From contig NC_057721.1 in assembly GCF_004010195.1 (NCBI RefSeq), forward strand, positions 51,845,414 to 51,909,413: a DNA stretch of 64,000 nt. Reading direction: 5' to 3'. Shown one piece after another: positions 8,830-58,758 of this stretch. Both the position numbers and the translations under genes were made by a program. Each line of letters starts with the position of its first letter. The first letter of the stretch is position 1. This stretch comes from Chiloscyllium plagiosum (Eukaryota). The notes beneath the pieces are model-generated. The model was given only the letters and a program-made list of their open reading frames with translations. It searched no databases and was not told the DNA's origin.

Positions 8830-8962
8830 ATTCCTGATGAAGGGCTTATTCCTGAAATGTTGACTCTCCTGCTCCTTGGATGCTGCCTGACCTGCTGTGC
8901 TTTTCCAGTGCCATACTGTTCGAGTCGGAACTCCAGCATTTGCAGTCCTCACTGTCTCTCTA
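8830..8962 (+). mobile_element. Short PLE (Neptune-type) terminal fragment beginning at a hammerhead-like motif
   Basis: ttcCTGATGAagggcttattcctGAAAtgttga...gatgctgcctgacctgctgtgcttttccag...gcagtcctcact, same family as 49075-49291. Confidence 0.75.
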
Positions 8963-8974
8963 ATACAATAATGT

Positions 8975-9391
8975 TCTTTTTTGGCCCCGGGGACTTATCA
9001 ACCTTCAGACCTAACAGCTTCTCCAACACCAAATCCTGGCAAATATAGATTCCCTTAAGTTCAGGTCCTTCAGCCACTGTTACCTCAGGGGGATTGCTTG
9101 TGTCTTCCCAAGTGAACACAGGTCTGAAGTACCCATTTAATTCCTCTGCCATTTCTTTGTTCCTAGTAATATATTCCCCTGTTTCTGTCTTCAAGGGCCC
9201 AATTTTTGTCCTAACCATTTTTTTGCCTTGCACATACCTAAAAAAGCTTTTACTATCCTCCTTAATATTCTTGGCCCGTTTACCTTCGTACCTCATTTTT
9301 CCTCTGTGTATTTCTTTCTTAGTAATCCTCTGTTGCTCTTTAAAAGCTTCCCAGTCCTCAGTTTTCCCACTTATCTTAGCTATGTTATACT
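8975..9391 (-). mobile_element. CR1 ORF2 internal fragment
   Basis: ORF 8949-9296: KSFFRYV...IGPLK...MAEELNGYF...KVDKSPGP. Confidence 0.85.
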
Positions 9392-9392
9392 T

Positions 9393-10098
9393 AATTAATT
9401 GTTGATCTTTGTGTGGTCATTCAGTTGAATAACAGGTGAATGGTGGAGTAAATGATGAGTTGTGACGTGGCATAGTGTTCTTGTATATCTGCTGTCTTTG
9501 CCCTTCAAGTTGGTAGAGGTTGCCAGATGGGCAGGTGCTGTTAGAAAAAAAGTACGCAACAGTGTATTTTGTAAATGATATCTTGTAAATAGAGCCATGT
9601 TGCGTGATGGTGGAGTAAATATTCAAAATGATGTTGGGATGTTAGTCAAGTGGGCTGCTTTATCCTAGATGGAGCCTCTTGAGTGTCAGAATTGTGTGGA
9701 AAAATTGAAAATGTTTTAATAGTGTTTCTTGAATTGTATATACAGTAAACCTTTTATTAACTGGCACCTATGGGAGCAGGAGTGATCCAATTGATCATAT
9801 ATTCCAGATAATCAATACATTCACATAACCACTAAAATCACACTAAATAATAAAAACATAATACAAGGTGTATACACTTTACTGTTATACTTTATTTACA
9901 GTATAGATCACAAATTTAAAGCAAAGCTGCATTATTATAAAACCTATCGGCAGAGGGCCTTCTTATTTACACCCTCAACTGATTTACTCTGATATCATGG
10001 CAGCTCACATATTTGAGGAGATATTGACTCGAAATCGAATTAATTGTTGATCTTTGTGTGGTCATTCAATTGAATAACAGGTGAATGGTGGAGTAAAT
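9393..10098 (+). repeat. 61-bp direct repeat (9393-9453 and 10038-10098), one mismatch
   Basis: aattaattgttgatctttgtgtggtcattca(g/a)ttgaataacaggtgaatggtggagtaaat. Confidence 0.9.
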
Positions 10099-10224
10099 AA
10101 ATATAAAAGAACTATCATAATTGGACAAATTAATACAATAAACTTCATGGTATCTGAGGTGCAGAATTTTGCCAGTTTATCAAATGTGCCTTTAATAAGG
10201 TGCTAGTTAAAGCAAAGTTTGTTG
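9743..10224. mobile_element. Tigger/pogo-like non-autonomous DNA transposon (MITE)
   Basis: TA|CAGTAAACCTTTTATTAACTGGCACC ... GGTGCTAGTTAAAGCAAAGTTTGTTG|TA, i.e. degenerate ~26 bp TIRs with a TA target duplication. Confidence 0.7.
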
Positions 10225-10505
10225 TATTGAAAACTGGCTCAAAGCATAAGTACTAAACTTATCTGCCATGTGGTTATAATGTAATACCAAAAACAGAAAT
10301 TGTTGGTGAAACTCAGCAACATCTGATTGACAAACCAGAGATAAAGTTTCAAGTCTGGTCACTCTTCATCAGAACTCTCTTATAATTTAAGTTTTGTTGT
10401 CAGTTGTTTTATGTAAACTATGAATATTTATAAACTGGTTTGGTTTTTTAATGGCTAAGCCAAAAATCCTGAAATAATTTGTGTTTTTTATTTGGCTGAA
10501 TAAAG

Positions 10506-15222: not shown

Positions 15223-15364
15223 GTACGTCTTTTGGTACATCTGTTATTGATGATAGTGTTGTCTCTATTCATTGTTTGAACAGAAACATTGAATTGTGCA
15301 AATATGCTTGAAGTGGCTGATCTCAGGAGTACAATGTAATTAGCCTCATTTATGATATAGTTAG

Positions 15365-17265
15365 GCAGAAGTGGGTAATGTAGATGCTGGAGATCAGAGT
15401 CAAGATTAGAGTGGTGCTGGAAAAGCACAGCAGGTCAGGCAGTCCTGAGCTGGAAGATTGGAACTGAGGTAAGGTGGGGGGAGGGGAAATGAGGAAACTG
15501 GTGAAGTCCACATTGATGCCATGGGATTGAAGGGTCCCAGGGTGGAAAATGAGGCGTCCTACTTCCGGGCATCATGTGGTGAGGGAGTGGCAGTGGGGGG
15601 GACTCAGGACCTGCATGTCCTCAGCAGAGTGAGAGGGGGAGTTGCAATGTTTGGCCTAGGGTTGGTTGGGTTAATTGGTATGGGTGTCCCGGAGACGTTC
15701 TCCGAAGTGATCTGCGAGAAGGCATTTGGTCTCCCCAGTGTAGAGGAGGGAATGGTCTTTGCGGAAAGGGGTGGGAAGGGAAACATATCTCTGGTGGTGG
15801 AGGAAATGTCAAACCGGTGTAAAAGGGTAACCATGGGCACCCGTATGGACCCCAGTTATGCCTCTCTCTTTGTCGGCTACGTAGAACAGTCCATCTTCCG
15901 TAGTTACACCGGCACCACTCCCCATCTCTTCCTCCGCTACATTGATGACTGCTTCGGCGCCACCTCGTGCTCCCGCAAGGAGGTTGAGCAGTTCATCAAC
16001 TTCACCAACACATTCCACCCCAACCTTAAATTCACCTGGACCATCTTTGACACCTCCCTCCCCTTCCTAGACCTCTCCATTTCCATTAATGATGACTGAC
16101 TTGACACTGACATTTTTTACAAACCCACTGACTCCCACAGCTACCTGGATTATACCTCTTCCCACCCTACCTCCTGCAAAAATTCCATCCCGTATTCCCA
16201 ATTCCTCCGCCTTCGCTGTATCTGCTCCCAGGCGGACCAGTTCCACCACAGAACACACCAGATGGCCTCCTTCTTTAGAGATCGCAATTTCCCTTCCCAC
16301 ATGGTTGAAGATGCCCTCCAACACATCTCATGCACATCCCGCTCCTCCGCCCTCAAATCCCACCTCTATAACCGTAACAAGAACAGAACACCCCTGGTCC
16401 TCACTTTCCACCCTACCAACCTTCGCATTAACCACATCATCCGCTGACATTTCCACCACCTCCAAACGGACCCCACCAACCGAGATTTATTTCCCTCCCC
16501 ACCGCTTTCCACAAAGACCTTTCCCTCTGTGACTACCTGATCAGGTCCAGGCCCCCCCAACGACCAACCCTCCCATCCTGGCACCCTCCTCTGCCACCGC
16601 AGGAATTGCAAAACCTGCGCCCACACCACCTCCCTCACCTCCATCCAAAGCCCCAAAGGAGCCTTCCACATCCATCAAAGTTTCACCTGCACATCCACAA
16701 TGTCATTTATTGTATCCGTTGCTCCCGATGCGGTCTCCTCTATATTGGGGAAACTGGACGCCTCCTTGCAGAGCGCTTCAGGGAACATTTCTGGGACACC
16801 TGCACCAATCAACCCCACCGCCCCGTGGCCCAGCGTTTTAACTCCCCCTCCCACTCTGCCGAGGATATGCAGGTTCTGAACCTCTTCCACTGCCACTCCC
16901 TCACCACCTGACGCCTGGAGGAAGAACGCCTCATCTTCTGCCTCTGAACACTTCAACCCCAGGGCATCAATGCGGACTTCACCAGTTTCTTCATTTCCCT
17001 TCCCCCAGTTCCATCCTTCCAGCTCAGTACTGTCCTCATGACCTGTCCTAACTGCCAATCTCCCTTCCCACCTATCCGTTCCATCTCTCTTGTTCTCACA
17101 TGATCTGCTATTACGCTCAATCCATTTTTAACTAACAATAGTCTCCATTAACAGTTATTCTTCTAGTCTGATGATTATCCACTGCTTTGTCTATCCAACT
17201 GTTCTTGTCTCTCTTTGGGCTCCATCTCCACATAGCATTTATTCCTTACCCCCTCCCTCATTCTA
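15365..17265 (+). mobile_element. Penelope-like element, Neptune-type, with an inverted 3'-end copy at its left (15365-~15805) and RT-linker-GIY-YIG on + (15810-17000)
   Basis: MGTRMDPSYASLFVGYVE, LRYIDDCF, LPFLDL, CKTC linker, NVIYCIRCSRCGLLYIGETGRLLAERFREH. Contains stops and frameshifts. Confidence 0.88.
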
Positions 17266-17267
17266 TA

Positions 17268-20118: not shown

Positions 20119-20705
20119 CATTCTTGAGTTGATTCCATCACCCTCCTGACCTGTGCCTTATAGATGGCAAATTGGAAGTCAAGAGGTGAGATACTTACTT
20201 TCTACAAAATGAACTAACCACTCACGTTAGAGTTTTTTTTTTCAACTCATAAGCTAACTCCTTTTCTCCCTCGATATTGCCACACCTGCTGAGTTTTTCC
20301 AGTGCTTTCTGTTTTAAATCACACCAGAAATTTATTTTTAGTTGACGGCTGGAATTGATTTCACTTAATTACTATTTAGCTTTCTGAAAAAAATACATTT
20401 CTAAGATTTTGCATATAGTCAAGCATTCTCTATTGAACATACTTTAAAATCAAAACACTACAAGATATTGCGCAATGTTTCATTCTGTTTTCAGCTTGTA
20501 GTAATATTCTGAAACTCATGACTAATTTGAATACATTTATTGGTTTGGAATTTCTGATGGGTTACATTGTTTTTTTTTCCCCAGTGCAATTGAACAAACA
20601 TGCAAAATTTCAAATGCATTTGCTGAGGCATGAAGTTTAAGAGCAGAGATGCTGGGACTATATAAAATGTTGATTAGGCTACAGCTAGAGTATTGTGTGT
20701 AGTTC

Positions 20706-21272
20706 AAAGTTTGTGAGAAGATTTGTAGCTCGGGTGCTCGTTGCTGTGGTTTTGTTCGCCGAGCTGGAAGTTTTTGTTGCAAACGTTTCGTCCCCTGTCG
20801 AGGTGACATCCTCAGTGCTTGGGAGCCTCCTGTGAAGCGCTTCTGTGGTGTTTCCTCTGGCATTTATAGTGGCCTGTCCATGCCGCTTCCGTTGTCAGTT
20901 TCAGCTGTCCGCTGTAGTGGGCGGTATATTGGGTCCAGGTCTATGTGTTTGTTGATGGAGTTTGTGGATGAGTGCCATGCTTCTAGGAATTCCCTGGCTG
21001 TTCTTTGTTTCGCTTGCCCTATAATGGTAGTGTTGTCCCAGTCAAATTCATGTTGCTTGTCGTCTGCGTGTGTGGCTACTAGGGATAGCTGGTCGTGTCG
21101 TTTCGTGGCTAGCTGATGTCAACCGGAAGCGGCAGGGACAGGCCACTATAAATGCCGGAGGAAACACCATAGAAGCGCTTCACAGGAGGCTCCCAAGCAC
21201 TGAGGATGTCACCTAGACAGGGGACGAAACGTTTGCAACAAAAATTTCCAGCTCGGCGAACAGAACCACAGC
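20706..21272. mobile_element. Fold-back Penelope/Poseidon-type PLE fragment with a 17-bp TSD, inserted in a CR1 remnant
   Basis: Reverse arm 20706-~21115 (GIY-YIG C-terminus plus pseudo-LTR) and forward arm 21117-21272. AGTATTGTGTGTAGTTC is duplicated at 20689-20705 and 21273-21289. Confidence 0.9.
21197..21236 (+). ncRNA. Minimal type I hammerhead ribozyme motif in a PLE pseudo-LTR (mirror copy at 20779-20818 on -)
   Basis: GCA CTGAGGA T GTCACCT-AGAC-AGGGGAC GAAA C GTT TGC: stem I GCA/TGC, catalytic core, stem II, palindromic ACGT in place of stem III. Confidence 0.7.
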
Positions 21273-21344
21273 AGTATTGTGTGTAGTTCTGAGATCTGCA
21301 TTGTAGTGATTGCATTGAAAATGGTGCAGAGAAGATTTACCAGG

Positions 21345-21682: not shown

Positions 21683-21689
21683 CCATATG

Positions 21690-25049: not shown

Positions 25050-25074
25050 CTGTACCACAATACCTTACTCTTTT

Positions 25075-36720: not shown

Positions 36721-36949
36721 AAGTTTCCCTCACCCATAAGATCCCATTCTCTCATCCTGGTGTAATTTAACTAGCAGGCCATTTTGTTTTAATTGCCTTT
36801 ATCTACGCTCAGTCACTGTTACCCTGCCATCAGCACCCATTGTCCACCTAACATCTTGTCATTGTCCAACAGGAGAACATCACATACAGAAACCAGTTGA
36901 ACAAATCCAAAGCGATCTTTAATTTGCAAAAGCGAACATAAACAAAATG

Positions 36950-40140: not shown

Positions 40141-40445
40141 CACCCTCATGTTTCAGTATCTCTATAACATCTTGCAGCCTTGTAAAATTCCTTCCATCTT
40201 CCTCATTCCTCTGATACTGGCCTTTTGTTCATCTCCATCCCCCATTCCATTAGAAACAAATTTCTGGAATGTCTTAAATCCTTCTCTTTATTGATTGTCC
40301 ACTTATTCTTTCAGGCCTTTCTTAAAATCCTCAATTTAGACCAAACGTCTTGTCACTTCTTCTTTAGTTTGGCACTTGTTACCATTTGAAGTGGGTGTTT
40401 TGCATTTTTTTTGTTAAATGTTTGTTCTTATTGAATCATGAAGAA

Positions 40446-43046: not shown

Positions 43047-43163
43047 GCAGAAGTGGGTACTGCAGATGTTAGGGATTAGAGGAGTGATGAAGGGCTTTTG
43101 CCCGAAACGTTGATTTTCCTGCTCCTCAGATGCTGCCTGACCTGCTGTGTTTTTCCAATCTTG
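43047..43163. mobile_element. Deleted fold-back Neptune-type fragment with a 16-bp TSD
   Basis: aaaaaaa(t/c)ccattcag at 43031-43046 and 43164-43179. Contains TGATGAagggcttttgcccGAAAcgtt. Confidence 0.75.
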
Positions 43164-43624
43164 AAAAAAACCCATTCAGTCTGGTTCCTTGCAAAGATCC
43201 AAGAAATTACACCTCTTCCATTTCCTCTTCTTCAAATCACCCAACAACACTAGGTACAGTGACAACTTAAAGACCTGAAAGGCAAGAATGTTTACTTTGG
43301 CCTTCCATCCTTTTTAGGAGGGAATTGGGTTCAAATGTAGCACAGACATAAGAAGAAGGACTTTCTCAATCTCTCACTTGTGATGCTCATATTCAAAATG
43401 AATTTAGTAAATTCAGAATAAGTTAGTAATCTCAACACAGTTCCAGGAGTGTCCAACTCTGTGGCTAACAACTGTCTGTACTATGATCCAGAATACTAAA
43501 AGAAGCAATAAGAAATTGCATTTTTTTTAACATGGAGCATGCATATTACAAAACACAGGTGAGTTAATTGAATCAAATATTATAATATAATTTGATCTGT
43601 AACCATAAAATATTGATAGCTTAC

Positions 43625-43936
43625 CTATTCTTAGAATGTAGGTGAATACTTTCATTGCATCTTTGGTGCTGATTTCACAGGTATATTCTCCCTCATTATG
43701 TGGAGTTACATTTTGCAGTTCAAGGGATGAAAGTTTCTGAATGTTTGACATTCCAGATTGGGTCGTCAAACAATTTGTATGTACATTGCCATATTGCTGC
43801 GTTGACTCACAAATCTTTAACGAAGGAGATGTTTCTGTTTTTCTAAATCTCCATTTAATTATGACATTTTGATCATCATTGATGAAATCATCACAAGTAA
43901 TTACAATGGTTTCACTTTCGGTTCTGTTCAATCTGC
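43625..43936 (-). CDS. HHLA2: HHLA2-like IgV domain 2 exon
   Basis: gttttttaag| ... G|gtaagc. GRLNRTESETIVITC...IIKW...SLELQNVTPHNEGEYTCEIST...YILRI. 312 bp, phase 1-1. The V-C-V order is the HHLA2 hallmark. Confidence 0.88.
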
Positions 43937-44324
43937 CTTAAAAAACAAATATAATGTCGTTTTACATCTTACCATTTTGTATACTCCGAAAATTGAAGAA
44001 TTTGTTATGTAATGGTTATGAATAATTGTGCCATAACATTAGGGCAGCACTTTCCTGCACATAGCAGATGCAATTACAGTGATGCAAGAGTTGCAGTCTT
44101 GTATCTGCATACTGTAAAAAAAAACTCAAACAAGTGGTATAGCAAACAATTTACAAGTTAGAAGGGAAAAGGTAACAAGGAAATAGCACAGTTCCAGCAA
44201 CAGTAATTGGTTCCCTTAGTGATAAAGCCGGGAGCCTTCCATTAAAGGCTGCAACTCTTTCATCTCTGTGGTTCCAACAGAGAGTGGGCCAAGTTATATG
44301 GGCAACAGTTCCTAACATCTTTTT

Positions 44325-44700
44325 TTAAATGTATTCTTTCATGGGATCTGGGCAGCACTAACAAGGTCAGCATTTGTTGCCTATTCTTAATTGCACTTGA
44401 ACTGAGTGACTTGCTGTGTCATTTCAAAGTCAACCACATTGCTGTGCATCTGGAGTCAGTTAGGTAAGACCAGATAAGGATGCCAGATTTTCTTCCCTAT
44501 TGGGAACCATTTGATTATAGCAACAGCAAGTGATTATAGTTTCATTGTCTACATTCCTAAGAACTGGCTTTCAATTCCAGATTGATTGATTAAATTTAAA
44601 TTCCACCAACTACTATGGTGATATTTGAACCTGTGTCCCAGAACATTTACCTGGCCTCAGGATTATTAGGATCAATCACATCGTCACTGCACCACTGTCG
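44325..44700 (-). mobile_element. tRNA-derived SINE, second family
   Basis: Reverse complement of the 32075/36408 family. Confidence 0.65.
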
Positions 44701-46391
44701 CCTCAAGGTCACACCTTGTTGTAAAACATTCAGGAAACAAAGAAAGGAGGGATAAATTCTAAATGTGGCAAAATGGCTGATCTTACCAATGCAAAATACA
44801 CTACGTCTGACTCAAACAAAGATGATATGTTTGGCTTTTGACAATTTAGATGTTGTGTTGTTCGTTATGTATTGATATTGGAGCATGCTCAAATCACGTT
44901 AGGAAGTAAATTTACTGCTATGGGCCTTAAAGACTTCCAGGAACTTAAAGATACGCTAATCCTTTGAAAATGCATTAAAATGTTTGATAGCAATGTAGGG
45001 AATATGAGAGTCCTCTGTATCAATGTTCATAGTATTACGTCTTGCTGTAGGATGTGAATCCATTGGAGAATTGGAGGACATACCATTTATTTCTATATCT
45101 GCATGGTGTGGAGAGTATTACAGGAAGTGCTAAGACAACAATGACCAGAGGAAGTGAAGACATTACACAGGTATTCCAGCCACTTTATATTCTTTGACAC
45201 CTCAAGTTCAGGATGCAACTTAGACAAGGTAACAAAAGTTGAAGTATTAAAGTGCATAGCCCAGCTGTAGTATTTATGTACTACTTAAAAAGAACGACAC
45301 TACTAGTGTTACAACCCTAATAAAAATAGCAGAAAACACTGAAATGACACAGTAATTATTCAACATCTGTGAAGAGACTAGGCATTTTATGGCATTTTAA
45401 GTGTGACAAATGCTTTCACGCTCCAGTTGGACAATTTTAGTCTAGATCTCCTGTTGGAAAACTGATTGAATCAAGTATCAACCTTATTTTACATCTCATC
45501 AGTTCAATGGAGAGTATTGTTGGCTTGAATCTATGTCCAGATGATCTTATTGGTTTTCCATTGGGCAAGGAATGATAAAGTTGCTACCCGTATATTTAGC
45601 TTTGTTCCTATCTGACACGCAACTAGAATTGTTGATGAAGCACAAAGGGATGGGACTAAAGTCACGAACCATGGATCTCAGTTTCTTATTGTGTAACAGT
45701 CTGAAATTAAGTGTACAGATGGCGCAACGCAGAGGATGATTGGTCACGGTTAGTTAAGGTTTTTCCACTGTTATTCAATCCACCATTTCTCTGAAGTGAA
45801 AGGATTTGCATCTTGGATTGGTCTGCTTTTAAACTAAGGCTTTGTTAGTCCCACTCCCCTTTACCAGTAACTCAGTTGGTCATCCTTATCAGCCTTATGC
45901 TACCAGGAATCTGGATGTCAGCATGGCTAAGTAATTACAACTCTTTCTTCACACTGTATACTTTATAATAGTAAAATACAGAGTGTTGCTTCTCTCTTGA
46001 TCTCCTTCCCAGACTCTTGTCTTTGAAATAAAATTAAATACTTTAATGCCTTACTCTCCATTTAAAGTATCATTTTAACTTGATTTGAGCAAACTAAAAT
46101 CACTTTGTTACATCTCCATGAACTGACTTGGTATTCATGGACAACATAATGCAAAGAACAACAGGAAGGTTCTTCAAACTTTATCCCAGGCATATAGAAA
46201 GAAAAGTATAGCAGCATCTTCACTTATGGTGACAAAAAGAAAAGTATGAACCACAGAAAATAATGCAATTATAGGTGCTATTTAACCATCAACGTTTATC
46301 CAATTCAAATACTACCACAATTCTCTAATATTGTATCTGTGTGAAAAATAAAATTTGTGAGTATTTTTAAGGATTATTTAACAATTGTTAC

Positions 46392-46685
46392 CTTTCATTT
46401 TCCAGGTTGCAGTCCATGACTGCTGCAATCGTTCATTCGTGATATTACATTTGTAGGTTATGTCTGATGTTTGATTAATCTTCAACATGCTCTGAACACT
46501 GAAAAGACCATCTGGATCAGTAGCCACTTCCAAACTTGCATCTTGAGTTAAGTCATTCTCGTTATTATCTTGCCATGTTACTAACGGTTTTGGATAACCA
46601 CCCAATGAAGAACAGGCAATATAGGTTACATTGGTTGCATGGGATAGCATATTTGGGTTTTCTAATGTTACATTCTTCCAATGAG
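46392..46685 (-). CDS. HHLA2: HHLA2-like IgC domain exon
   Basis: tttcttttcag| ... G|gtaaca. AHWKNVTL...IACSSLGGYPKPLVTW...DGLFSVQSMLKI...YKCNITNERLQQSWTATWKMK. B7 IgC motifs, with an HHLA2-like QxWxxxW end. 294 bp, phase 1-1. Confidence 0.92.
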
Positions 46686-46989
46686 CTGAAAAGAAATAGT
46701 AATTATTTGATTCCATATTAATACAGCTTAATGTACATTTATTACCATTCATCATATATAGTAATGGGAGTGAAAATCTGGACAAATGTAAAATGCTCTG
46801 CTGATTCATTATCGCACACTATAAATTGTGTAAAAATACCCCCAGTTCTGTGAAAGTACTTCTGTAAAATAAATAATTGTATGCAAAATTGATATAAAGT
46901 ACTATATTAACTTGCAAAAACAAAATATCTTCCAAGTCATTTCATAAAGTGCAAGAACAACAGGCCTGTGAGCAACGTTAGAACTCATA

Positions 46990-48360
46990 GAATGGAAGAG
47001 CTAATGGAAACATGGATTTAAAATTGGCTGACTGACAGGAAACAAAGTTTAGTGGTGATCACTTGTTTTTAGACACAGGAAATATTTATAGTGGCGTTCC
47101 CCATAGATCAATGATAGGACCCCAGCTGCTCCTGATATGTGTTAATAAACCATGCCTTGACATGTAGGGCAAAACTTCAAAATTTGCAGATGATACAACA
47201 GTTGGAAATATTGTGATCTCTGAGGTGGGTAGTGTAGATGGGCTATTGGAATGGACAGATAAGTGACAGATGAAATTTATTACAGAGAAAGGTGAAGTGA
47301 TTCAGTTTGGGAGGAAGAGTGAAAAGAGACAGCATTAAATAAAAGGCACAATTTTAAAGAAGCAGAGGAATGGAGGTGAATCAAATAATTAAAGGTGACA
47401 GGAGAGATTGAGAGTATGGTTAATAATACATGCAGCACCCTGGGCTTTATCCATGGTGGCATTGAATAGAAAAGCAAACAAGGTTAATTTGAGATTTGTA
47501 TTAAATTTGTAGTCTCAATTGAAGTCCAGCTTGTTACATCATACTTAGGAAGGATGTAAGTCATTAAAATGTATAGAGAAAAATTCCCAGGAATGGAGGC
47601 AGGGATGAGGAAGTTAAGTTACATAGAAAAAAATGGAAACGTTAGCGCAGTTCCCTTGGGAGAAAAGAAGATGGAGAGGAAATTTGTTAGAGTTATTGAA
47701 ATCATGATGAGTCTTAACAGAATAGATACAGAGAATTTGTACCAGTTAGTAGAAGGATTGAGAATCAGAAGGCATAGATTTAAGGTAACTAGGGCAGCAC
47801 GGTGGCTCAGTGGTTAGCACTGCTGCCTCACAATACCAGGGATCCGGGTTCAATTCCCGCCTCAAGCAACTGTCTGTGTGGAGTTTGCACATTCTCCCAG
47901 GGTGGGTTTTCTCCGGGTGCTCCGGTTTCCTCCAAAAGTCCAAAGATGTGCAGGTTAGGTGAATTGGTCATGCTAAATTGTCCGTAGTGTTAGGTGCATT
48001 AGTCAGAGGGAAATGGGTCTGGGTGGGTTACTCTTCGAAGGGTCGGTGTGGACTCGTTGGGCCGAATGGCCTGTTTCCACACTGTAGGGAATCTAATCTA
48101 ATCTAATCTAACGAATAAACCAATAGTGATAAGAAGAAAATCTTTCTCACAAAGTGAATGATTAAGATATGAAATGCACTGTCTGAGGACGTGATGGAGT
48201 TTAGGTCAAATAAGGATTTCAAGCGTGAATTAGATCGTTATCTGAAGAGGAAAGTCTTTACAGGGCTATGGGAAGAAGGCAGGGAAGTGGCACAGGATGA
48301 GTTCTTCTTCACAGATCCAGCATGATACAATGGGTTGAATGGCCTTATTTTTGTGTAACT
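46990..48360 (+). mobile_element. Decayed CR1 RT region with a nested HE1-type SINE (47792-48111)
   Basis: SKFADDT remnant. The SINE has A box TGGCTCAGTGG, B box GGTTCAATTCC and an (AATCT)4 tail. Confidence 0.85.
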
Positions 48361-48750
48361 GTTGTATAACATTTATGGATAACAGAAACCAAGAGAAAAG
48401 AAGAGACTAATTAGGGGCATTGCAAAGTTTGCTTGCAGTGATGGATTTCAAGGAGGTTTTCAAAGAAAGATTGACAAGTGGTGAACCACAGGGTAGGGAG
48501 AGTAAATCTACCCGACATTTATTTTAATGTTTCTCATTATATTATGTACTGAAAGAATATGTAGTATTGCTAAATATAAGTAAATATGTTTTTAATACGT
48601 GTCTGGAAATCTTCAATTCTAAACAAAGTTTCATCACTCTGGAACAAGCCTGAGTCATCACTCTAGTTGAAACAATTTACCTTTAAAATTGTTTTGAAGT
48701 ATTGGGTTACCAAAGCTTAACAGTCAAATGTACTAATTACTGTGTGTAAA

Positions 48751-49057
48751 TTAGAATCCCTATAGTGTTTGGCTCATCAGGTTGGCACCAATCCTCTGAA
48801 GACCATCTCACCTAGACCCAGCCCCCTACCCTATTCCCATATTTCCCATGGCTAATATACCTAATCTACACATCCCTGGACACAACAAGGCAATTTACTA
48901 TGCCCAATCCACATAACTTGTATATTTGTGAACTGAGGGAGGAAATCCATGCAGACATGGGGAGAATTGTGCAAACTCCACACAGACAGTCACCTAGGGC
49001 TGTAATCAAACCCAGATTTCTGGTGCTGTGAGACTGCCCTGAGCCACCACATCGCCA
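48751..49057 (-). mobile_element. Older HE1-type SINE
   Basis: Reverse of the gactgtctgtgtggagtttgcac body and tail. Confidence 0.7.
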
Positions 49058-49074
49058 TGGTAAGAAATATAGGA

Positions 49075-49292
49075 GGAGAAAGTGAGGTCTGCTGATGCTG
49101 GAGATCAGAGCTGAAAATGTGTTGCTGGAAAAGCGCAGCAGGTCAGGCAGCATCCAGGGAACAGGAGAATCGACGTTTCGGGCATAAGCCCTTCTTCATT
49201 CCTGAAGAAGGGCTTATGCCCGAAACGTCGATTCTCCTGTTCCCTGGATGCTGCCTGACCTGCTGCGCTTTTCCAGCAACACATTTTCAGCT
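49075..49292. mobile_element. Young fold-back Neptune-type PLE fragment: perfect 90-bp inverted repeat, 14-bp TSD
   Basis: Arms 49109-49198 and 49203-49292 are exact reverse complements with loop TTCC. TAAGAAATATAGGA at 49061-49074 and 49292-49305. CTGAAGAagggcttatgcccGAAAcgtc at 49202-49229. Confidence 0.92.
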
Positions 49293-51501
49293 AAGAAATA
49301 TAGGAACATAGGGGCAAGAATGGGCCATTCAACTCTATTAAGACTGCTATACCATTTAACAGGTCATGACTGCTCATTCACTTTGATGCCATTTACTTAC
49401 ACTATCTCTATATCCTTTTATGTCAATAGCATTTAGAAACCTTCAATCTCTGCTTTAAACATACTCAATGATTGAACTTCCACAGCTCTCTTGGGTAGAG
49501 ACTTCAAATAATTCACAACCTTCCGTGTAAAGAAAATTCTTCTCATTTCGATCCCAAGTGGCTTCCTTGCTATTTTGAAATTGTGTACTTTGGGTCTCAA
49601 CAGCTTAACTAGCGGAAACAAGTCACCTGCATCTTTTCTTCTGTCTCTTTAAGTATTTAATAGGTTTCAGTGAGATTGCCTCTCATTCTTCAAAACTCCA
49701 ATCTCCCCAATTCTCTTCATTGGACAGTCCCACTATCCTGGGAACAAATCTGGTGAAACTCCCTCTACACACTCCCTCTATATGGCAATATCTTTCCTAT
49801 CATAAGGAGACTGAAGCTGCAACATGTAACTCTGGTGAATTCTAACAAGGTTCTATACAATTCAAGCAAGACTTTGTTACTTCTGTACTCAATCTTTTAG
49901 CAGTAAAGGCTAATTTACCATTTGCCTTTTACCAATTTATAAATTGCTTGATGCATGTCCATATAAGTTTTCAGTGACTTATTGACAAAGACACCTAGGT
50001 TCCTTTTGTATATCTACACTTTTGAAATGCTTACCATTTAAGAAATACCCTGCTCCTCTTACAGAAATGAAAAAAAAAACGGAAAGGAAAAAACATACAA
50101 CATGACTGAATAAGCAAGAGGATAAGGAACATAGATCCCTTAAATAACAAAGCTGGGGAAATAATAATGGTGAAACAGGAGATGGCAGAGGAGTTGAAGA
50201 CACGACCAGCATTCCAAAATTGCTACATAATTGAGTGGCAAGAGAGGGAAAGGAAATAAATTCAAAAACTGTCATAAGAGAAAAAATACTATGGAAGCTA
50301 AAGACTAGTAAACTCCTAATGGTTTGCATATTAGGATATTAGAGGAAGTAACTACAAAGATGGTAGATGCACTGATAGTAATTGTTCAAGAAACCTTAGA
50401 TTCTAGAAAACTCATGGAAGATTAGAAAACTGCTAATGTAACAGACTTATTCAAAAAGGAAAGGAAACAAAAGCAGGAAGCTACAGGCCAGCTAGTTGAA
50501 CATATGCTATTGGGAATATATTAGAATTGATCACAAAGATTTTAATAACAAAAGCATTTAGAAAATCATAACAGAAATCAAGCAGAGTCAGTAGGGCTTC
50601 TTGAAGGAGAAATCAAGCCTATTATTATGCCTATTAGAATTCTTTGAGGAGGTAAAAATCAGAATAGATGATGGGGAGCCTGTAGATTTAATATTTTTTA
50701 GATTCCCAAAAGACATTCGATAAGGTACCACACATTAGGCTACTTAATAAGAAAAGTGCCCATGGGTGTTGAAGGTAGTACATTAGCATGGAGAGAGGAT
50801 TGGCAAACTAGTAGAAGACAAAGAGTTGGGTTAAGGGGTGGCATTTTCAGCATGGCAACCCTGAAACTAATGACAAACCACAAGGATCATTGCTGGACCC
50901 ATAATTATTTACAATATATATTAATGACTTGAAAGAGGAAAGTGAATATACTATTGTCAAGTTTGTCGAAGATACAAAGAATAGGTAGGAAGGCAAGCAG
51001 TGAGGATGAATCTACAGAGGGTAAGTGGGCAAAACCTTGGCACATGGAATATAATGTGGGAAAATGTGAGATCATGCAATTTGGCAAGAGAAGTTGAGGA
51101 GCTGAATATTGTGCAAATAGAAAAAACTACAGAAAACTGTAGTTCAGAGGGATTTAAGTATCTTTGTACATAAATGAGTAAATTTAAGTTCAGCAGATAA
51201 TAACAAAGACAAGTAGATTGCTAGGTACAGAAGGTCGTTTGTATGAGGAGAGATTGATTAGTTTGAGCTTGTAAACATTGAAGTTTAGAAAAATGAGAGA
51301 CAACCTGATTGAAACATAATGACTAGATACTGAGAGGCTGTTTCCCACTGTGACAGTGACTAAGACCAGATAGGAAAATCTCAAAGCAAAAGGTGGCCCA
51401 GTTAGGACAAAGATGAGGAAGACTTTCATCTCTCAGAAGGTAGTGAATATGCAGAATTCTTTACTGAAGAAGGCTGTAGATGTTGGGTCATTAAGCAATG
51501 A

Positions 51502-51662
51502 GGAGAAAGTGAGGACTGCAGATGCTGGAGACCAGAGTTGAAAAATGTGGTGCTGGAAAAGCACAGCAGGCCAGGCAGCATCCGAGGAGCAGGAGAATTG
51601 ATTCTCCTGCTCCTTGGATGCTGCCTGGCCTGGTGTGTTTGTCCAGCACCATGTTTTTCAAC
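51502..51662. mobile_element. Fold-back Neptune-type fragment with a 14-bp TSD, hammerhead core absent
   Basis: TCATTAAGCAATGA at 51488-51501 and 51663-51676. The arms meet at ggagaattgattctcc. Confidence 0.85.
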
Positions 51663-53271
51663 TCATTAAGCAATGATCACTTTACACTGTGCAGTCATTT
51701 GGCCATGCAGCTGCTTCAAGGTTCTGTACACTCTAATCAGTTTGCTGTGTCAACGCAGTGTTTTCTGGTTTCAGAAATCAATGTTATGCATAGATCTTGG
51801 AGACCTGCCTGTCAAAAGAGAAATGATAGGGAGTTTTGTTGTTAAATATATTCAAGGATGGGATAGACAGATTTTTAGTTAGCAAAGGAATCAAGGCTTA
51901 TGGGGAACAGGCAGGAAAATGTAGATGTGGATTATAAGGTCAGCCACGTTATCACTGAATGGCAGAGAAAATACTATGGGCTGAATAACCCCTCTATACT
52001 TTTATGTCTTGTAGTCCTTTATTCAGATAGGGAAGGGTCAGAATGAAACTACAGACCAGTTAGCTTAACAGCTTTCATTAAAAAAAATTAGATGCTATCA
52101 CTAAAAAAGTTATAACAGGGCACTTAGATATAATCATTCAGCATGGCTTTGTGGAAGGCAAATCACATTTGATTAGTCATTTGGTTTTCTTTACATGAAG
52201 AATTTACATGTATTATGGTTGAAGTGGAACCAGTGTATCTATGTTACTTAGATTTCCCGAAGGCATTTGATAAAAGTGTCACATTAAAGTTTGTTATGAA
52301 ATATAAATGGTCATCGTGTAGGCAGTAATACATTAGCATGAATAGAAAATTAGCGGTTAACAAGAAGCAGAGATTATGTATAAATGTAATGAGTGGTGTG
52401 CCAGAGGGATCAGTACTTCAACTACTTGTAAGTTATATAAATAACTTGAATGAAGGGAGGATAATTAAGTTTATTAATGACAGGAAGCTGGATGGAATGT
52501 AAATTGTAAGAAAATATAAGCAGGTCACAAAAAGGTGTAGATTAATTGAATGAGTGACAATCCACCAATTGGATTGTAATGTATGGAAATGTAAAATTCT
52601 CAATTTCGGCAGGAAGAATAAAAAAAAATATATTACTTCAATGATGAGAAATTACAAAGCTCTGAGATGCAGAGATCTGGGTGTCTTAGCACATGCATCA
52701 CAAAAGATTGGTATGCAGGTACAGTAAGTAATCAGGGAAGATAACAAATGATCTAAGTTATTATGATTGATATTGATATGAAACTAGGGATATTATGCTT
52801 CAGTTGTGCAGGGTACTGATGAGGCAACATCTAGAGTACTCTGCACAATACTGGTCCCCTTATTTAAGTAAGAATCTAAATACATTGGAGCAGTAGAGGG
52901 AAGGTGTACCAGATTAATAACTTGAATGGTGGCTGATCTTTGAGGAAAGATTAGGCAGGCTATGCTTGTACCTTCAGGAGTTTCAAAGAGTCACAGGCAG
53001 CCTGATTAAAATAAACGGTCGTAAACTCTTGACAGGGCAGCTGTGGATAGAATGCTTTCTTTAATGTGAGAATCTAGAATTAGGAGACACTATTTGAAAC
53101 TAAGGGGCTGCCCATTTAAAACACAGATTAGATTAACATTAGACGAACATTTTTCTCTTGGAAGGTCGTAAGTCTTTGCAACTCACTATCTATAAAGATG
53201 CAGAAGCAGAAACTTTGAAAAATTTGAATGTGGAGGGAGCTAGATTCTTGGTAAGCAAAGAGTTAAAAGGT

Positions 53272-53460
53272 ACAGCAGTTCAGGCAGCATCTGAGGAGCA
53301 GTAAAATAGACACTTCGGGCAAAAGCCCTTCATTCCTGATGAAGGGTTTTTGCCTGAAATGTCGATTTTACTGCTCCTCGGATGCTGCTTGAACTGCTGT
53401 GCTTTTCCAGCACCACTAATCCAGAATCTGGTTTCCAGCATCTGCAGTCATTGTTTTTAC
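53272..53460. mobile_element. Fold-back Neptune-type fragment
   Basis: acagcagttcaggcagc...cccttca-ttcc-tgatgaaggg...gctgcttgaactgctgt. Decayed TSD caaagagttaaaaggt / caagggttgaaaggt. Confidence 0.8.
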
Positions 53461-56400
53461 CAAGGGTTGAAAGGTTATCAGGGATAGGAATGTGGATTTG
53501 AGGTTACAGCCAGATCAGCTACGATTCTATTAAATGGCAGAGCAGGCTCGAGGGGCCAAATGGTTTACTCCACGTTTCTGTGTATTTACACATATGTTTG
53601 GACAAATAAAACCCACACCTTTCATAGCCATCAAATCTTGGAGTAGAACTCACAGTCTAAACTTCTGTCTCAGAAGCAAGGAAATGCCATTGCACAGCAA
53701 ACACTCTGGATAGTGCTGTACTTTCGCAGTGCAATAAAGTTTATAACCTTAAAAGGATTGTGAAAGCTCAGGCTTAGTAAATATGCTGACTGTTTGTTAA
53801 AAATGAAATTTGATTTCCTAACTTTTTTTCTTAGCTTGTAGAGCAATAGATTAATTCTCCTCTCAGGACTCAATAGCTTGTCTACCTCTTTGGTGGAACA
53901 ATGTTGATTAACTCCAGAAAAAAATTAAAAGAATGAATACAGCCATAGCTCAAATAAACAACATTAATGCCAGTTTTTATGTAAAAAAAGGTCTTGCAAT
54001 GATGGAATTTGAGGTGCCCCTTTCTCTTTCTACTAAAAAATTGGGAGATGACTTTGTTTGGATGATTAGTTTTGAATGAGCTAAAACTTTATTCTTTCTG
54101 TTCAGGTGTGACAAAACAATTTGATTTATTTGAGCTTCACCATTAATTCCAATTCATTTACTGCCAGCCTCAATGTCAAGAAATTGCACTCTCTTCCATA
54201 AAACAAATGTGAGAAATGGTGCCTACAAGACTAACCCCTTAACACTCACGTTTCTTATCAAGTTTTTATTTTATAATTTCTCAGGATCCTTATCAGTCTC
54301 TTAGGCAGTGAATCCTAAAGTAAGACCCATAAATCAGCATAGCCATGGCCATAAATGGAACTTATGCATTCACATTAAAGTATATTAATGGCATATATCT
54401 TTTGAGATATTTCCAATTTGATCAGTACTGAACTGAACTATGACACCTATCAAATGAGGATATCTTTGAGATATGGATCTCAGGTGGATATTTTTGTTGT
54501 GCAATGACAGAGAGTTAATTAATAATCTTGCTCTAAAGGATACTTTAGAAAAGAGTAAACTTCATATGATGGAATTTTAGATTAAGAGTGAGAGTGAAGT
54601 AGTTCAATCAGAAATAGGTTTGTCAATCTATTCAAAGGGAAAAATGAAGGTATAATGGGAGTCCAAAACTAGACGGCAGAGTTTTAAGGTGAGAGGGGTC
54701 AGATTTTAAAGCGATCTAAGGCACAACTTTTTCATGCAGAGGGTGGTGCATCTATAGAATAAGCTGCCAGAAGAAGTGATGGAGGCTGGTACAATTACAA
54801 CATTTAAAAGGCATCTGGATGGGTAAATGAATAGGAAGGGGTTTAGAGGGATATTGGCCCAAATGCTGGCAATTGGGACAAGATTAGTTTAGGATAACTG
54901 GTTCCCATGGACGAGTTGGACAGAATGGTCTGTTTCTATGCTATATAGTTCTATGACTATAAGGGAAGAGAATAGTAGGGAATAAGGAAATCAAAACTAA
55001 ACAAATTCTTTTAATATTTTTAAGGTAGTAATCAGTAAATTCTTGGTAAGCAAGGGGTGAAAGGTTATCAGGGGTAGGAATGTGGATTTGAGCTTACAAT
55101 GAGATCAGCTATGATCTTATTAAATAGCAGAGCAGGCTTGAGAAACCAAATGGGTTACTCCATGTTCGTGTGTATTTACATATATATTTGGGCAAATTAA
55201 ATCCACAATCTTACATTTTTTTAACTAGGTATTAGTTTCTTTGAGTTTCATGGATTGTTTCTCTTCACAAGGCCTAGCAAGTTTAATAGGTGCATCGTAT
55301 CAAATGCACCTTGCTAACTGTATGATCCACTCCTATGTTGCTCTACTTGTCTGAATCTAGCACCATTCTATTACTCGCAATACTTAGAACAACTCATTGC
55401 TACAAGGATATCCTGCAATGGACTGACATCCTGGAGCCAGCACCATCTTTAAAAGAACATTGAGTCCCAGCCAAGTACCATAGGTCAAGAGTTGTCTTGC
55501 ATGGGTTCCTGATATTTGCCTCAATATGGTAGATAAGGGAAACTGGTGTCAAGAGTGTGGTGCTGGAAAAGTACAGCAAGCCAGGCAGCTGGAAAGGGAC
55601 AAGGGAAACTGGTGCCCCACTTTACAGGCTATGCAAGTTATCCTGCTTTATTAGGAAAAAAAGACAGAATATTTCTTAAATAACAAGAGACTAGAAGAGT
55701 GAGCTTTAAAGACACTTGGATATCCTTGCTCATGAGTCTCCGAAAGTCACCATGCAAATACAGGAACAATTAACAAGACAAGTAATATGTTACCTTTCAT
55801 TACATGAGGCTTTGAGTAGAGAAGTAAAATTGTTTTGCTACAAATATAAAAGGGCTTGGTGAAACCATGGTATATTGTGTCATTTTGTGAATATTGGTTT
55901 TATTAGCTACTTGCCAGAGAGTGAAACAGAAGTTAAACCATTTAAATCTTGGATTAGAAGGATTGTCCTGCGAGGAAAGATTAAATGAACTGGGCCTACA
56001 TTCTCTGCAGGTTTGAAGCACGAGAAATTCTCATTCAAATGTAGAAAATTCTTACAGGGATTGACAGAGTAGGTCATGGAAAGCTATTTCCCCTGGCTGT
56101 GGAGTCTGGAACCAGGGGACATAAGCTCAGAATATGGGCTGGCCATTTAGGACTGAGAGGTGGAGGATTATTTTCATTCAGAGGATGGTGAATCTTTGGA
56201 ATTTTCTCCCTCACTGGCTGTGGAGGCTCAATCATTGAATATATAGAATTGTGGATATTAAACATTATGAGGTACAGGGATGGCAACTGAAAGTTGTATT
56301 AAAATAGAAGATAAGCCAAAACCTCAGTGGATGGTGGAGTCAGTTTATGAAGCAGAATATCCAATTCCTATTTCTTATGTCTTTTACAAATGAAGTTGAG

Positions 56401-56619
56401 GTAAAGATCAGTGCTGGTCTAATTGAATAGTGTTGACTGACGTTCTCCCATTTCCATCTTTTTAAGTAAGTATTATTTAACAGTTTAATTTTGACAATAT
56501 ACTTTAAATTTACTTCTTTAAATTCTTGTTAAGTGTTAAACATTTTCACATTGTGTTAGTTCCAAATTGCAACTCAATTCATAGAAGACATTTTCAATGG
56601 AAAATTACATATTTCTTAC

Positions 56620-56946
56620 CAGCCACTTGTAGCAAGACATCAGTTTCTTGTTTCCCTCCAGGCGTACTGACATAGCATTGGTACTCTCCTTCGTCATTCT
56701 TATTAAGTTTTGAAAGCTGAAGGGATGCATTTCCTCTCATTATCTCATTCTTAAAAAGCTTTGTTCTTCCTCTGTAGTTTTCATCTTGGTTCGATAGCTG
56801 ATCGCTTTCTCGATAAAAGCTGTGAATTACAATGGTGCCAGAGTGCAAAATGCGCATCCAGTGAAGAACTACTCCAGCTATAGGTGATGGTTGAAATTTA
56901 CATGGCAAAATGACTTCCTTGGAAATTATACCCATGATGCTCCCAT
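56620..56946 (-). CDS. HHLA2: HHLA2-like IgV domain 1 exon
   Basis: tcttttccttttag| ... G|gtaaga. DGSIMGIISKEVILPCKF...LHW...IHSFYRESDQLSNQDENYRGRTKLF...GNASLQL...DEGEYQCYVST, a classic B7/butyrophilin-type V domain. 327 bp, phase 1-1. Confidence 0.92.
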
Positions 56947-57891
56947 CTAAAAGGAAAAGAATATGCTTGAAATTTATGATCCAAATTTCAAAAACAGATC
57001 ATGTCAATTAACCATGAAGTGAATGTTCACCAGCAATAATTATGCACAGTGAGCATCACAATTTAGAGGGTGGCTATTGGAAAAGATTAAGATAACAAAG
57101 GTTCTGTGCCTAAACCTAGAATTGTGGCAAGTAAAATTGATTTATATTATTCCAGGAAGGCATAGATAACCTCTGGTTTCTTAACTTTACTGCAAAATTA
57201 TTTTCCTAAACTTCTTTCCTCTATTTCTCCGCATCTATATCGAAAAAAAAATGTGCAAAGCTCTTGGATTTCTTTGTTATTAAAATTGAGATCATTCAAT
57301 TAATTGCCTAAAATAACACGGCCCCCTGAAACCATTTACATCTCCCCCTTGCTAAACCCTATTTAAGATGTATTGTCTTGCCTGGTATAGTGTGAAATGA
57401 TTAGAAATCGACATATGAATGCCCTTTTGGAATAGACAGCCTGTCAGTTCCATTTAATGAAAACTAATCTTGACAAAGGTGTAGCCTCTTTTCTTTTGAA
57501 ATAAGGGTGTGACAAAATGCTAATATCTACCCTTCTAATTCCATTTTCCATAACCTTAATATTCTTTATTTTTTTAAACACGATCTAGTTCTCTATTAAA
57601 TATTTTATCAGAGTTGTTATTCTAACACCCCTCCAGATGTGCTAGTAAATAAAGAACAATGGATCCATGATTTTGAAACATACACTTCCCACCCTCAGTG
57701 AATATTCAGTAAGTAGTTGTGATCAAGCAGTGCTGATAATTCTAATTTTAATACATTGTGTAAAAAGATTCTGCTATTTTCCACTTTATTACAGTAATTT
57801 GTCCTTTATTTTAATGTGTTTATAGTTAATTGAACCCTCAGTAATTTTATAGCATAAGGCAATATGTAAATATCAGAAAAAAGGTTGTCAC

Positions 57892-58009
57892 CTGTAGTCA
57901 CAGTCTGCAGTTGCAAAATTCCAAAAACATAAAAACAGACTATTCCACATAACATTGTCGTGCTTCTTTGAGTTTTCAATTGGCTGTGTTTAAGTATATT
58001 TCCAAACAT
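57892..58009 (-). CDS. HHLA2: HHLA2-like signal-peptide exon (ATG at 58009, or in-frame ATG at 57955)
   Basis: MLCGIVCFYVFGILQLQTVTT followed by a phase-1 donor G|gtgaca. An upstream acceptor ttttttaacag| gives exon start 58080. The phase joins correctly to the IgV exon. Confidence 0.75.
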
Positions 58010-58541
58010 AATGTTGCAAGTAGAATCTTATTTCATTCTCAGTGAACAGGTCAGGTCATTCCTTAAGAATCATCATTCAACTGTTAAAAAAGGCCAAATT
58101 ATGAAAAAGATCACTGAAAAAATACTTCCATAGCACATAAGTTGCACAATATTCAAGAACATAGTGACTGTTGATTAGTTTATCACCAGCACTTGACCCC
58201 CACAGGAGACGTCTTCTTCAGTGTCTAGAATGAGTGGATTCTCTTTTTTTAAAGCAATGAATTCAGATATGTTATAACACACTCAAGAGCAGCTGGGGCA
58301 TCAGCCCAGATCTATTCACTGGGGTCAATTCACTTTAGAGAATTAATTTTATCCGTCATTACCTGGTTTGGCTTACATGTGACTCCAGACCAAAACAGCA
58401 ATGTGATCGACTCTTAATTGTCCTCCGGGCAAATAGGAAAGGGTAATAATTGCCGGCCTCACCAATGATGCCCATATCCCATAAATAAATCAACAAGGTC
58501 AGGACGGCAGGTTTAATATATGTGTGACTTAGATCAAGATA

Positions 58542-58758
58542 TGACTTGGAGATGCTGGTGTTGGACTGGGGTGTACAAAGTTAAAAATCACACAACAGCA
58601 GGTTATAGTTCAACAGGTTTAATTGGAAGCACATTAGCTTTTGGAGAGCCGCTCCTTCATCAGGTGGTTGTCACCTGATGAAGGAGTGATGCTCCGAAAG
58701 CTAGTCCTTCCAAATAAACCTGTTGGACTATAACCTGGTGTTGTGTGATTTTTAACTT
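58542..58758. mobile_element. Fold-back PLE-type fragment of a third family, with a hammerhead motif at the apex
   Basis: Arms aagttaaaaatcacacaac...ccttcatcaggtg / cacctgatgaagg...gttgtgtgatttttaactt. CAC CTGATGA A GGAGT-GAT-GCTCC GAAA G CTA GTC at 58672-58706. TSD acttagatcaa(g/a)ata. Confidence 0.8.

What the first reader, a model, noticed from the sequence alone, without database searches (positions are those of the whole stretch)
8830..58758. Dispersed set of minimal hammerhead ribozymes carried by at least three Penelope-like families
Seen: the motif stemI-CTGANGA-N-stemII-GAAA-palindrome recurs in otherwise unrelated repeats. Poseidon-type: GCA CTGA(G/T)GA T GTC(A/G)CCT..AGGGGAC GAAACGTT TGC (21197, 20779-, 41772, 40484-). 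Neptune-type: CTGA(A/T)GA A GGGC....GCCC GAAACGTC (49202, 53336, about 43085, 8834). Third family: CAC CTGATGA A GGAGT...GCTCC GAAAGCTA GT (58672). Weaker copies lie at about 30114 and about 10370 (-). Stem II differs completely between families but stays base-paired. The stem III palindrome switches ACGT to AGCT. Among the Poseidon copies, differences fall only at N7, the internal mismatch and the loop. Established: PLE pseudo-LTRs are known to carry minimal type I hammerheads that lack a stable stem III and cleave as dimers, and an extra base between A9 and G10.1 occurs in natural hammerheads. Inference: this genome is seeded with ribozyme-bearing mini-elements at roughly one per 6 kb here, mostly inside introns. 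Caveat: stem I of the Neptune-type motif is only about 2 bp.
Basis: partly seen in the sequence, partly recalled or inferred. Interest (0 to 1): 0.8.

Follow-up and report, generated by a model that had tools for sequence, protein, structure and literature searches.

The report
Cap-marked Penelope hammerhead stubs
These tiny self-cutting-RNA (hammerhead) motifs sit in the end repeats of several Penelope-type jumping genes, a known kind, and most of them here are short, likely inactive stubs whose ends suggest they were copied from the capped front of the element's uncut messenger RNA.

Summary
The motifs are real: 6 strict minimal hammerheads in the window against 0.005 in shuffles; five more named copies are damaged. 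They are pseudo-LTR ribozymes of Penelope-like elements, a described class. The 'third family' is a second Neptune-type element (one full-length copy has the motif in both pseudo-LTRs). Three narrow patterns alone match 98,813 places; an arbitrary 1.36-Mb sample gives about one pseudo-LTR piece per 3.2 kb. Cores are invariant across families while stems covary, but dispersed copies decay at the flank rate, and all six intact window copies are predicted to be locked in inverted-repeat hairpins; one of them is sense to the mapped B7-family gene. Less familiar: 5' ends of Neptune stubs stop abruptly at an initiator-like A at or just before stem I, often after an extra G (75/100 vs 29/100; 52/100 vs 15/100). 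In one family poly(A) is added about 30 nt after the predicted cut, short of where DNA copies end. This likely marks run-off cDNA from the capped, uncut mRNA leader. The scan noted the same reading on other DNA of this genome. Cleavage and the start site are untested.

The parts
20703..21273 (.). Poseidon-type (F1) insertion: two head-to-head 3' arms, hammerheads at 20779-20818 (-) and 21197-21236 (+), 17-bp target duplication
40447..41887 (.). Poseidon-type (F1) insertion with RT and GIY-YIG-like fragments, hammerheads at 40484-40523 (-) and 41772-41811 (+), 15-bp target duplication; the ORF stop codon lies in the stem II loop and an ATG is formed by A9, the extra U and G10.1
   Evidence: ATG position as in anole PAc (PMC11167929)
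8830..8957 (+). Neptune-1 (F2) solo stub beginning at the first base of stem I; C3 at 8834; C11.1 and C15.2 decayed
49074..49292 (.). Neptune-1 (F2) fold-back stub; intact motif on + (C3 49202, predicted cut after 49229), minus arm lacks C3; 14-bp target duplication
53272..53461 (.). Neptune-1 (F2) fold-back stub; + motif (C3 53336) with CpG decay, minus arm broken in the core
43052..43157 (+). Neptune-1 (F2) stub lacking C3, preceded by a short inverted piece
35189..35389 (.).
51502..51662 (.). Neptune-1 (F2) fold-back stub without ribozyme; both arms begin at or next to the predicted cut; 14-bp target duplication
15349..17130 (.). Neptune-1 fragment: inverted F2 pseudo-LTR end (15349-15442, ribozyme deleted) plus RT, CX4CxxC linker and GIY-YIG pieces on +
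   Evidence: (PF01541 E 7.8e-05)
58542..58758 (.). Neptune-2 (F3, the 'third family') fold-back stub; + motif C3 58675, predicted cut after 58703; minus arm starts at the inferred +1 and has G12>A
   Evidence: family link
30113..30205 (+). Decayed stub of an older fourth family (F4); G12>A
10278..10376 (-). Decayed F4 stub beginning at the first base of stem I, preceded by G
31728..56946 (-). Host B7-family gene (IgV exon 56620-56946, IgC 46392-46685, IgV ending 43625, transmembrane exon 31728-31846); plus-strand motifs inside it are antisense to its pre-mRNA

Best explanation
The motifs are minimal type I hammerheads in the pseudo-LTRs of Poseidon- and Neptune-type Penelope-like retrotransposons, and most Neptune copies are short stubs that were likely made as run-off cDNA from the capped, uncut 5' leader of the element's mRNA. 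Shown: family identity, copy numbers, the sharp 5' boundary, the extra G, the F3 poly(A) site, neutral decay of copies. Inferred: transcription starts at an initiator-like A that is the first base of stem I (F2, F4) or 5 nt before it (F3); the ribozyme lies in a short repeat present at both ends of the mRNA, where the two copies would supply each other's stem III; reverse transcription starts inside the leader, 85-125 nt downstream, and runs to the cap, adding a C opposite it; two such cDNAs joined head to head give the hairpins. The dispersed stubs are predicted to be inactive; selection acts on the master elements only.
For: Identity: GIY-YIG/RT upstream of each family; L309+L316 carries the F3 motif in both pseudo-LTRs 3,044 nt apart, with the ORF ATG 121 nt after C3. 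Boundary: in 140 arbitrary 10-kb stretches, 5' ends in a 10-nt zone around the inferred +1 versus the 40-44 nt upstream are 49 vs 10 (F2, n=166), 14 vs 2 (F3, n=46), 35 vs 4 (F4, n=98); no such cliff in 17 Poseidon copies. Extra G among non-native letters just before +1, first 100 listed: F3 75 vs 29 one base inside, F2 52 vs 15; Fisher p 9e-11 and 4e-8. TATAAA 30-32 nt before +1 in 4 of 4 long F3 seeds. RNA run X19: F3 reads about 10:1 one strand over the motif, poly(A) at +56/+60 (411 and 327 reads), depth flat across the cut; DNA copies end at about +80-94 or +115-124, beyond that site. Internal RT start at both ends of the tail and no need for cleavage in vitro: PMC11167929.
Against: No direct 5'-end data: X19 shows no place where many molecules begin, and depth upstream of +1 is about half to two thirds of that over the motif. 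63 of 166 F2 ends lie inside the motif rather than at +1. In several loci the G is also present in the target duplication or the inverted arm, so it is inferred to be selected by pairing with a cap-derived C, not always untemplated. F2 has only a TATA-like TTTATC. Tails are as common on long copies as on stubs. The poly(A) argument is clear only for F3. F2a ends at the cut number 123 against 28 at one control position, so some cut RNA may be copied; 36 of the first 100 read AG before GAAT, which fold-back microhomology explains.
Confidence: 0.7

Rival explanations
1. The dispersed copies are working ribozymes that cut host pre-mRNA (as monomers, in trans, or with protein help) and are kept by selection.
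For: 62 of 105 F2 and 18 of 36 F3 copies that cover the core keep all 11 core bases; raw core mismatch is below raw flank mismatch in F2 and F3 (3.5 vs 5.5%, 3.4 vs 6.4%); F3 RNA is present in run X19.
Against: The difference mostly goes after matching for base; G12 decays at CpG rate; inverted arms give predicted stem II pairing near 0 in 5 of 5 hairpin cases folded; four of five motifs in the B7 gene are antisense; reads run flat across the cut; published min-HHR monomers do not cut (PMC4209133).
Confidence: 0.07
2. Stubs are ordinary random 5' truncations of cDNA primed on read-through RNA of 3' pseudo-LTRs; the boundary comes from RT stalling or junction microhomology at the motif, and the G from target preference.
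For: Many ends lie inside the motif; microhomology at junctions is common; long and short copies share both 3' end points; 5' truncation with inversion is typical of these elements (PMC8557442).
Against: Random truncation gives no cliff (p 1e-26, 1e-8, 9e-22); the cliff is on the far side of the structure; the G is fixed to +1 in two families with different neighbours and absent one base inside.
Confidence: 0.13
3. Stubs are copied from short capped RNAs made by the many solo pseudo-LTRs that keep their promoter (a SINE-like non-autonomous cycle), or hairpins arise by self-priming on antisense RNA as proposed for rotifer elements.
For: About a fifth of F2 and a quarter of F3 copies keep 40 nt or more of upstream sequence; F3 has TATA, initiator-like and poly(A) signals within about 100 nt; antisense self-priming is proposed in PMC3846280.
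Against: F3 RNA is polyadenylated before the points where DNA copies end; a G at the sense +1 is not expected from an antisense template; the two arms of hairpins end at different points.
Confidence: 0.1

Closest known systems
Minimal hammerheads (min-HHR) in pseudo-LTRs of metazoan Penelope-like elements (Cervera and De la Pena 2014, PMC4209133)
   Same: Type I, no stable stem III, palindromic 15.2/16.2, extra base between 9 and 10.1, G10.1-C11.1 pair, short stem I, many sequence families, mostly single motifs from truncated elements, some opposite-strand pairs; reported from fish Poseidon and Neptune elements.
   Different: Scale: 98,813 exact matches to three patterns here against about 4,000 (coelacanth) and 9,000 (Xenopus) there, by different methods. 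The parts read do not mention sharks, a start site at stem I, or a cap-derived G.
Poseidon of Anolis carolinensis, PAc (Frangieh et al. 2024, PMC11167929)
   Same: F1 has the start codon at the head of stem II, the cut 28 nt later (26 in PAc), two 3' end points about 35 nt apart that bound a tail, and both-strand insertion products.
   Different: In F3 the ATG is 121 nt after C3, so the ribozyme is wholly in the leader; PAc cleavage was shown with protein, nothing was assayed here; no 5' cliff was seen in 17 Poseidon copies.
Insertion units of EN+ Penelope-like elements with inverted pseudo-LTR, tail and target duplication (Arkhipova et al. 2013, PMC3846280; Craig et al. 2021, PMC8557442)
   Same: Head-to-head inverted arm, tail on one end, target duplication, TATA and initiator-like motifs in the pseudo-LTR.
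   Different: Here most Neptune units are under 135 nt per arm and bounded at the inferred start site; the data favour a sense, capped template over the antisense self-priming suggested in 2013.
Non-LTR retrozymes (bioRxiv 10.64898/2026.07.22.740005)
   Same: Derived from Penelope pseudo-LTRs, carry type I hammerheads, found in one cartilaginous fish.
   Different: Retrozymes are head-to-tail tandems; the window's copies are solo or head-to-head.
Minus-strand strong-stop DNA of LTR elements and the cap-derived 5' G of full-length LINE-1 insertions (both recalled; searches retrieved no paper)
   Same: Internal start of cDNA in the leader, run-off at the cap, a short repeat at both RNA ends, an extra G at the 5' junction.
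   Different: No tRNA primer or integrase; priming is by target DNA; a strand transfer was not shown here.

Membership tests
min-HHR of metazoan PLE pseudo-LTRs | Core boxes CUGANGA and GAAA-UH with G10.1-C11.1 and an extra base after A9 | tested here: met
   6 intact in the window; majority state in all five family profiles
min-HHR of metazoan PLE pseudo-LTRs | No stable stem III; palindromic 15.2/16.2 | tested here: met
   ACGU in F1, F2, F4, F5; AGCU in F3
min-HHR of metazoan PLE pseudo-LTRs | Stems I and II covary between families | tested here: met
   Stem I GCA/UGC, CCA/UGG, AUUC/GAAU, AGUU/AACU, CAC/GUG; stem II of 4, 5 or 7 pairs; read by eye from profiles, no R-scape
min-HHR of metazoan PLE pseudo-LTRs | Present in both pseudo-LTRs of a full-length element | tested here: met
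   F3: L309+L316, 3,044 nt apart; L310 and L317 agree. Not tested for F1, F2, F4
min-HHR of metazoan PLE pseudo-LTRs | Self-cleavage as a dimer or with protein | not testable with these tools
   No assay; reads run flat across the cut; two junctions at the cut fit the U6-fusion lead
Neptune clade | CX2-5CxxC linker before a C-terminal GIY-YIG | tested here: met
   F2: CHRRNCKTC; F3: CHGGRCKTC; definition from PMC8557442. F4 not linked to an ORF
Penelope/Poseidon clade | C-terminal GIY-YIG without the linker; ATG inside the ribozyme | tested here: met
   F1 loci; endonuclease recognised by motif, Pfam gave no hit for the window fragment
Neptune and Poseidon clades | Placement in an RT tree | not tested
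   No tree was built
Non-LTR retrozymes | Head-to-tail tandems with a hammerhead in each unit | tested here: not met
   Window copies are solo or head-to-head; not surveyed genome-wide
Rfam hammerhead families | Covariance-model match | tested here: not met
   No hammerhead model among 18 matches at E<=10

The most novel reading that the evidence does not exclude
Neptune elements replicate through a strong-stop-like step: the mRNA begins at the ribozyme and ends just past its second copy, the hammerhead fills a terminal repeat at both ends, and hundreds of thousands of cap-marked run-off cDNAs in this genome record reverse transcription of the uncut leader. The two terminal ribozymes would pair to cut only a side fraction of RNA (decapping it), so the ribozyme is a brake or switch and not the maker of the template.
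Probability: 0.5. Interest if true: 0.65.

Novelty: new member of a known kind. Interest (0 to 1): 0.42.

Why it matters
How Penelope-like elements rebuild their pseudo-LTRs and what their hammerheads do are open questions in the papers read. If the stubs are run-off copies of the capped leader, the genome itself maps the start site, shows that uncut sense RNA is the main template, and predicts simple 5'-end and in vitro tests. It also gives one of the largest natural sets of minimal hammerheads. The dispersed copies themselves are probably inert, so this is not a new layer of host regulation.

Tried and rejected
Rfam: no hammerhead match, only hairpin look-alikes below cut-off. A splice acceptor before the conserved ATG-like word in F4: rejected, both CAG and TGG variants occur, as expected from CpG decay. 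A splice junction as cause of the 5' cliff: rejected, no shared upstream exon in 60 loci. Peak of 5' ends at the cut: 10 vs 14, 2 vs 4, 2 vs 24 in the sample and 123 vs 28 genome-wide with one control: inconclusive. Tail enrichment on stubs: not seen. Sequencing runs: no RNA holder listed; X20 laid no reads; X19 is a poly(A) single-cell library, about 2% read, and cannot show caps. First try for a full-length F3 copy failed in 20 stretches; 2 of 13 further stretches reached a 5' pseudo-LTR with the motif. T-run before the F2 cut: 0 of 13 matches had the upstream word seen in F3; the two F3 junction sites were not among the 48 best U6 matches, so their U6 identity is unverified. The protein atlas did not answer, so the plus-strand exon at 18560 is unnamed. 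Lunse et al. 2017 was not held.
Full report
Positions written +n or -n count from C3 of the CUGA box (= 0).

Observation. All named motifs are in the sequence. A strict descriptor finds 6 in the window against 0.005 in 200 shuffles, and 27 in 574,807 bases of arbitrary genomic stretches against 0 in 10 shuffles; the window is about twice as dense as that sample. Five of the 11 named copies are damaged in the core or palindrome. The four F1 motifs are two insertions, each an inverted pair with a target duplication. Rfam has no matching hammerhead model.

Genome. G000 is a 3.56-Gb vertebrate genome; 'shark-like' is my recollection from its repeats and the label in other scan notes, not a call result. 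Exact patterns match 11,199 (F1), 69,815 (F2b/c) and 17,799 (F3) places, with 0 for reversed controls. In 140 stretches of 10 kb at round coordinates (1,357,921 non-N bases), 424 pseudo-LTR pieces were counted after dropping those at stretch edges or beside N: about one per 3.2 kb, roughly 1.1 million if scaled.

Identity. F1 follows a GIY-YIG-like reading frame without a linker; its stop codon lies in the stem II loop and an ATG is formed by A9, the extra U and G10.1, as in anole Poseidon. F2 follows a CX4CxxC linker and GIY-YIG. F3 does too, so it is a second Neptune-type element; L309+L316 has the motif in both pseudo-LTRs 3,044 nt apart and the ORF starts at +121, at the end of the tail. 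Clades are assigned by the linker only; no tree was built. The weak copies at 30113 and 10372 belong to F4, an older family with 4-pair stem I and 5-pair stem II, not linked to an ORF here.

Selection. Between families the core is constant while stems change and stay paired. Between subfamilies, varying non-CpG columns are 0 of 10 in the core of F2 and F3, but 4 of 7 and 3 of 6 at free positions; in old F4, decay blurs this (2 of 10 core columns vary). Within copies that cover the core (105 of 219 F2, 36 of 72 F3, 48 of 98 F4), raw core mismatch is lower than flank in F2 and F3, but after matching for base it is 36 vs 39.8, 12 vs 18.8 and 57 vs 47.4. G12 sits in a CpG and is changed in 18/104, 10/35 and 18/48 copies. 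So masters are under selection and dispersed copies decay.

Window context. A B7-family gene (V-C-V-TM) runs on the minus strand from 56946 to 31728. Of the five named motifs inside it only 40520 is sense, and it has a 99% complementary arm. Folding of five hairpin cases gave stem II pairing near 0; the 40447-41887 pair was not folded. No two sense copies lie in tandem, so the dimer that published work requires is not available in cis. In the sample 77 of 166 F2 and 20 of 46 F3 copies have a head-to-head partner.

The 5' boundary. Among copies over an identity floor (166 of 219 F2, 46 of 60 F3, 98 of 98 F4), ends in a 10-nt zone around -4 (F2, F4) or -8 (F3) outnumber those in the 40-44 nt upstream by 49:10, 14:2 and 35:4; the zone was chosen after a first look at 60 of the 140 stretches. 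32, 12 and 7 copies run past -55, and many end inside the motif. The boundary base is the A of an initiator-like word (consensus recalled), which in F2 and F4 is the first base of stem I; F3 has TATAAA 30-32 nt upstream, one F4 seed CATAAA, F2 only TTTATC. Where the base before that A is not the native C (11,124 F2 and 2,437 F3 places), it is G in 52 and 75 of the first 100 listed; one base inside it is G in 15 and 29. In 60 loci viewed the G is often shared with the target duplication or the inverted arm, which fits pairing through an added C but weakens 'untemplated'. That RTs add C opposite a cap is recalled; searches found no paper.

RNA. In run X19 F3 reads are strongly one-stranded, carry poly(A) at +56 and +60, and cross the cut (+28) with flat depth; no pile-up of starts is listed. 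DNA copies end near +85 or +121, past the poly(A) site, so they were not primed at the poly(A) end; leader or read-through RNA is needed. This agrees with internal initiation and with cleavage being dispensable in vitro. F2a shows A-rich loose ends at +87 in 57 reads with weak agreement, which does not settle the point for F2.

Does it cut? Not tested. Ends at the cut are not clearly enriched. Following a lead from other scan notes, a T-run search found 1 F3 match genome-wide, and a wider pattern 2 of 4 matches, in which a word I recall as the U6 3' end joins exactly at the predicted cut; F2 gave 0 of 13, and U6 identity was not confirmed.

Mechanism. Inferred: the mRNA starts at the ribozyme and, in F3, ends about 30 nt past its second copy, so the motif fills a terminal repeat and the two copies could complete each other's stem III. 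Target-primed RT starts at either end of the tail in the leader and runs to the cap; failed extension leaves a stub, and two such cDNAs from the two target strands give the hairpins. Cutting would remove the cap (F3) or cap and start codon (F1).

Literature seen. PMC4209133 parts 1-2 of 4; PMC11167929 parts 1-2 of 4; bioRxiv 10.64898/2026.07.22.740005 parts 1-3 of 5; passages of PMC8557442, PMC2377424, PMC3846280, PMC6765202; Lunse 2017 only through that review. No supplements were read; they may list cartilaginous-fish motifs or junctions. Searches listed no paper on a cap-derived G, a strong-stop step or shark pseudo-LTR ribozymes; most subscription papers are not covered. TATA and initiator motifs in pseudo-LTRs are in print.

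Earlier scan notes. I recorded the cap reading before looking. One search shows four notes with the same reading on other DNA of this genome; they are repeats, not support.

Verdict. A new, very abundant member set of a known kind. The finding as written is ordinary; the cap-marked boundary is a testable clue to an open mechanism.

Noticed in passing
window 51502-51662: Fold-back stub whose two arms both begin at or next to the predicted cut; could record cut RNA, but the centre is also a natural TCGA palindrome.
   Followed up: partly
G000:C52879:991-1020 and G000:C30:18156237-18156263: A word recalled as the U6 snRNA 3' end joins F3 exactly at the predicted cut; U6 identity not confirmed.
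   Followed up: partly
window 41775-41887; L022, L050, L076 downstream of the motif: In F1, F2, F3 and F5 a short arm downstream of the ribozyme has two alternative pairing partners, one before and one inside the tail; may relate to the two RT start points. Seen by eye only.
   Followed up: no
window 41760-41800: In F1 the ORF's last codons run through the CUGA box and stop in the stem II loop, overlapping the next copy's ATG in another frame.
   Followed up: partly
window 18560-18699 (+): Coiled-coil exon that resembles the CIP2A C-terminus (recalled, untested); with the V-C-V B7 gene this suggests an HHLA2-like locus.
   Followed up: no
   Followed up: partly
L076, L112, L089, L073: More hammerhead families in the sample: F5 (Poseidon-like, perfect 7-pair stem II, two variants) and F6 (4-pair stem II, 3-nt loop).
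   Followed up: partly
L037, L188, L198: Chimeric stubs in which an F2 arm is joined head to head to an F3 arm, or one family sits directly against the other.
   Followed up: no
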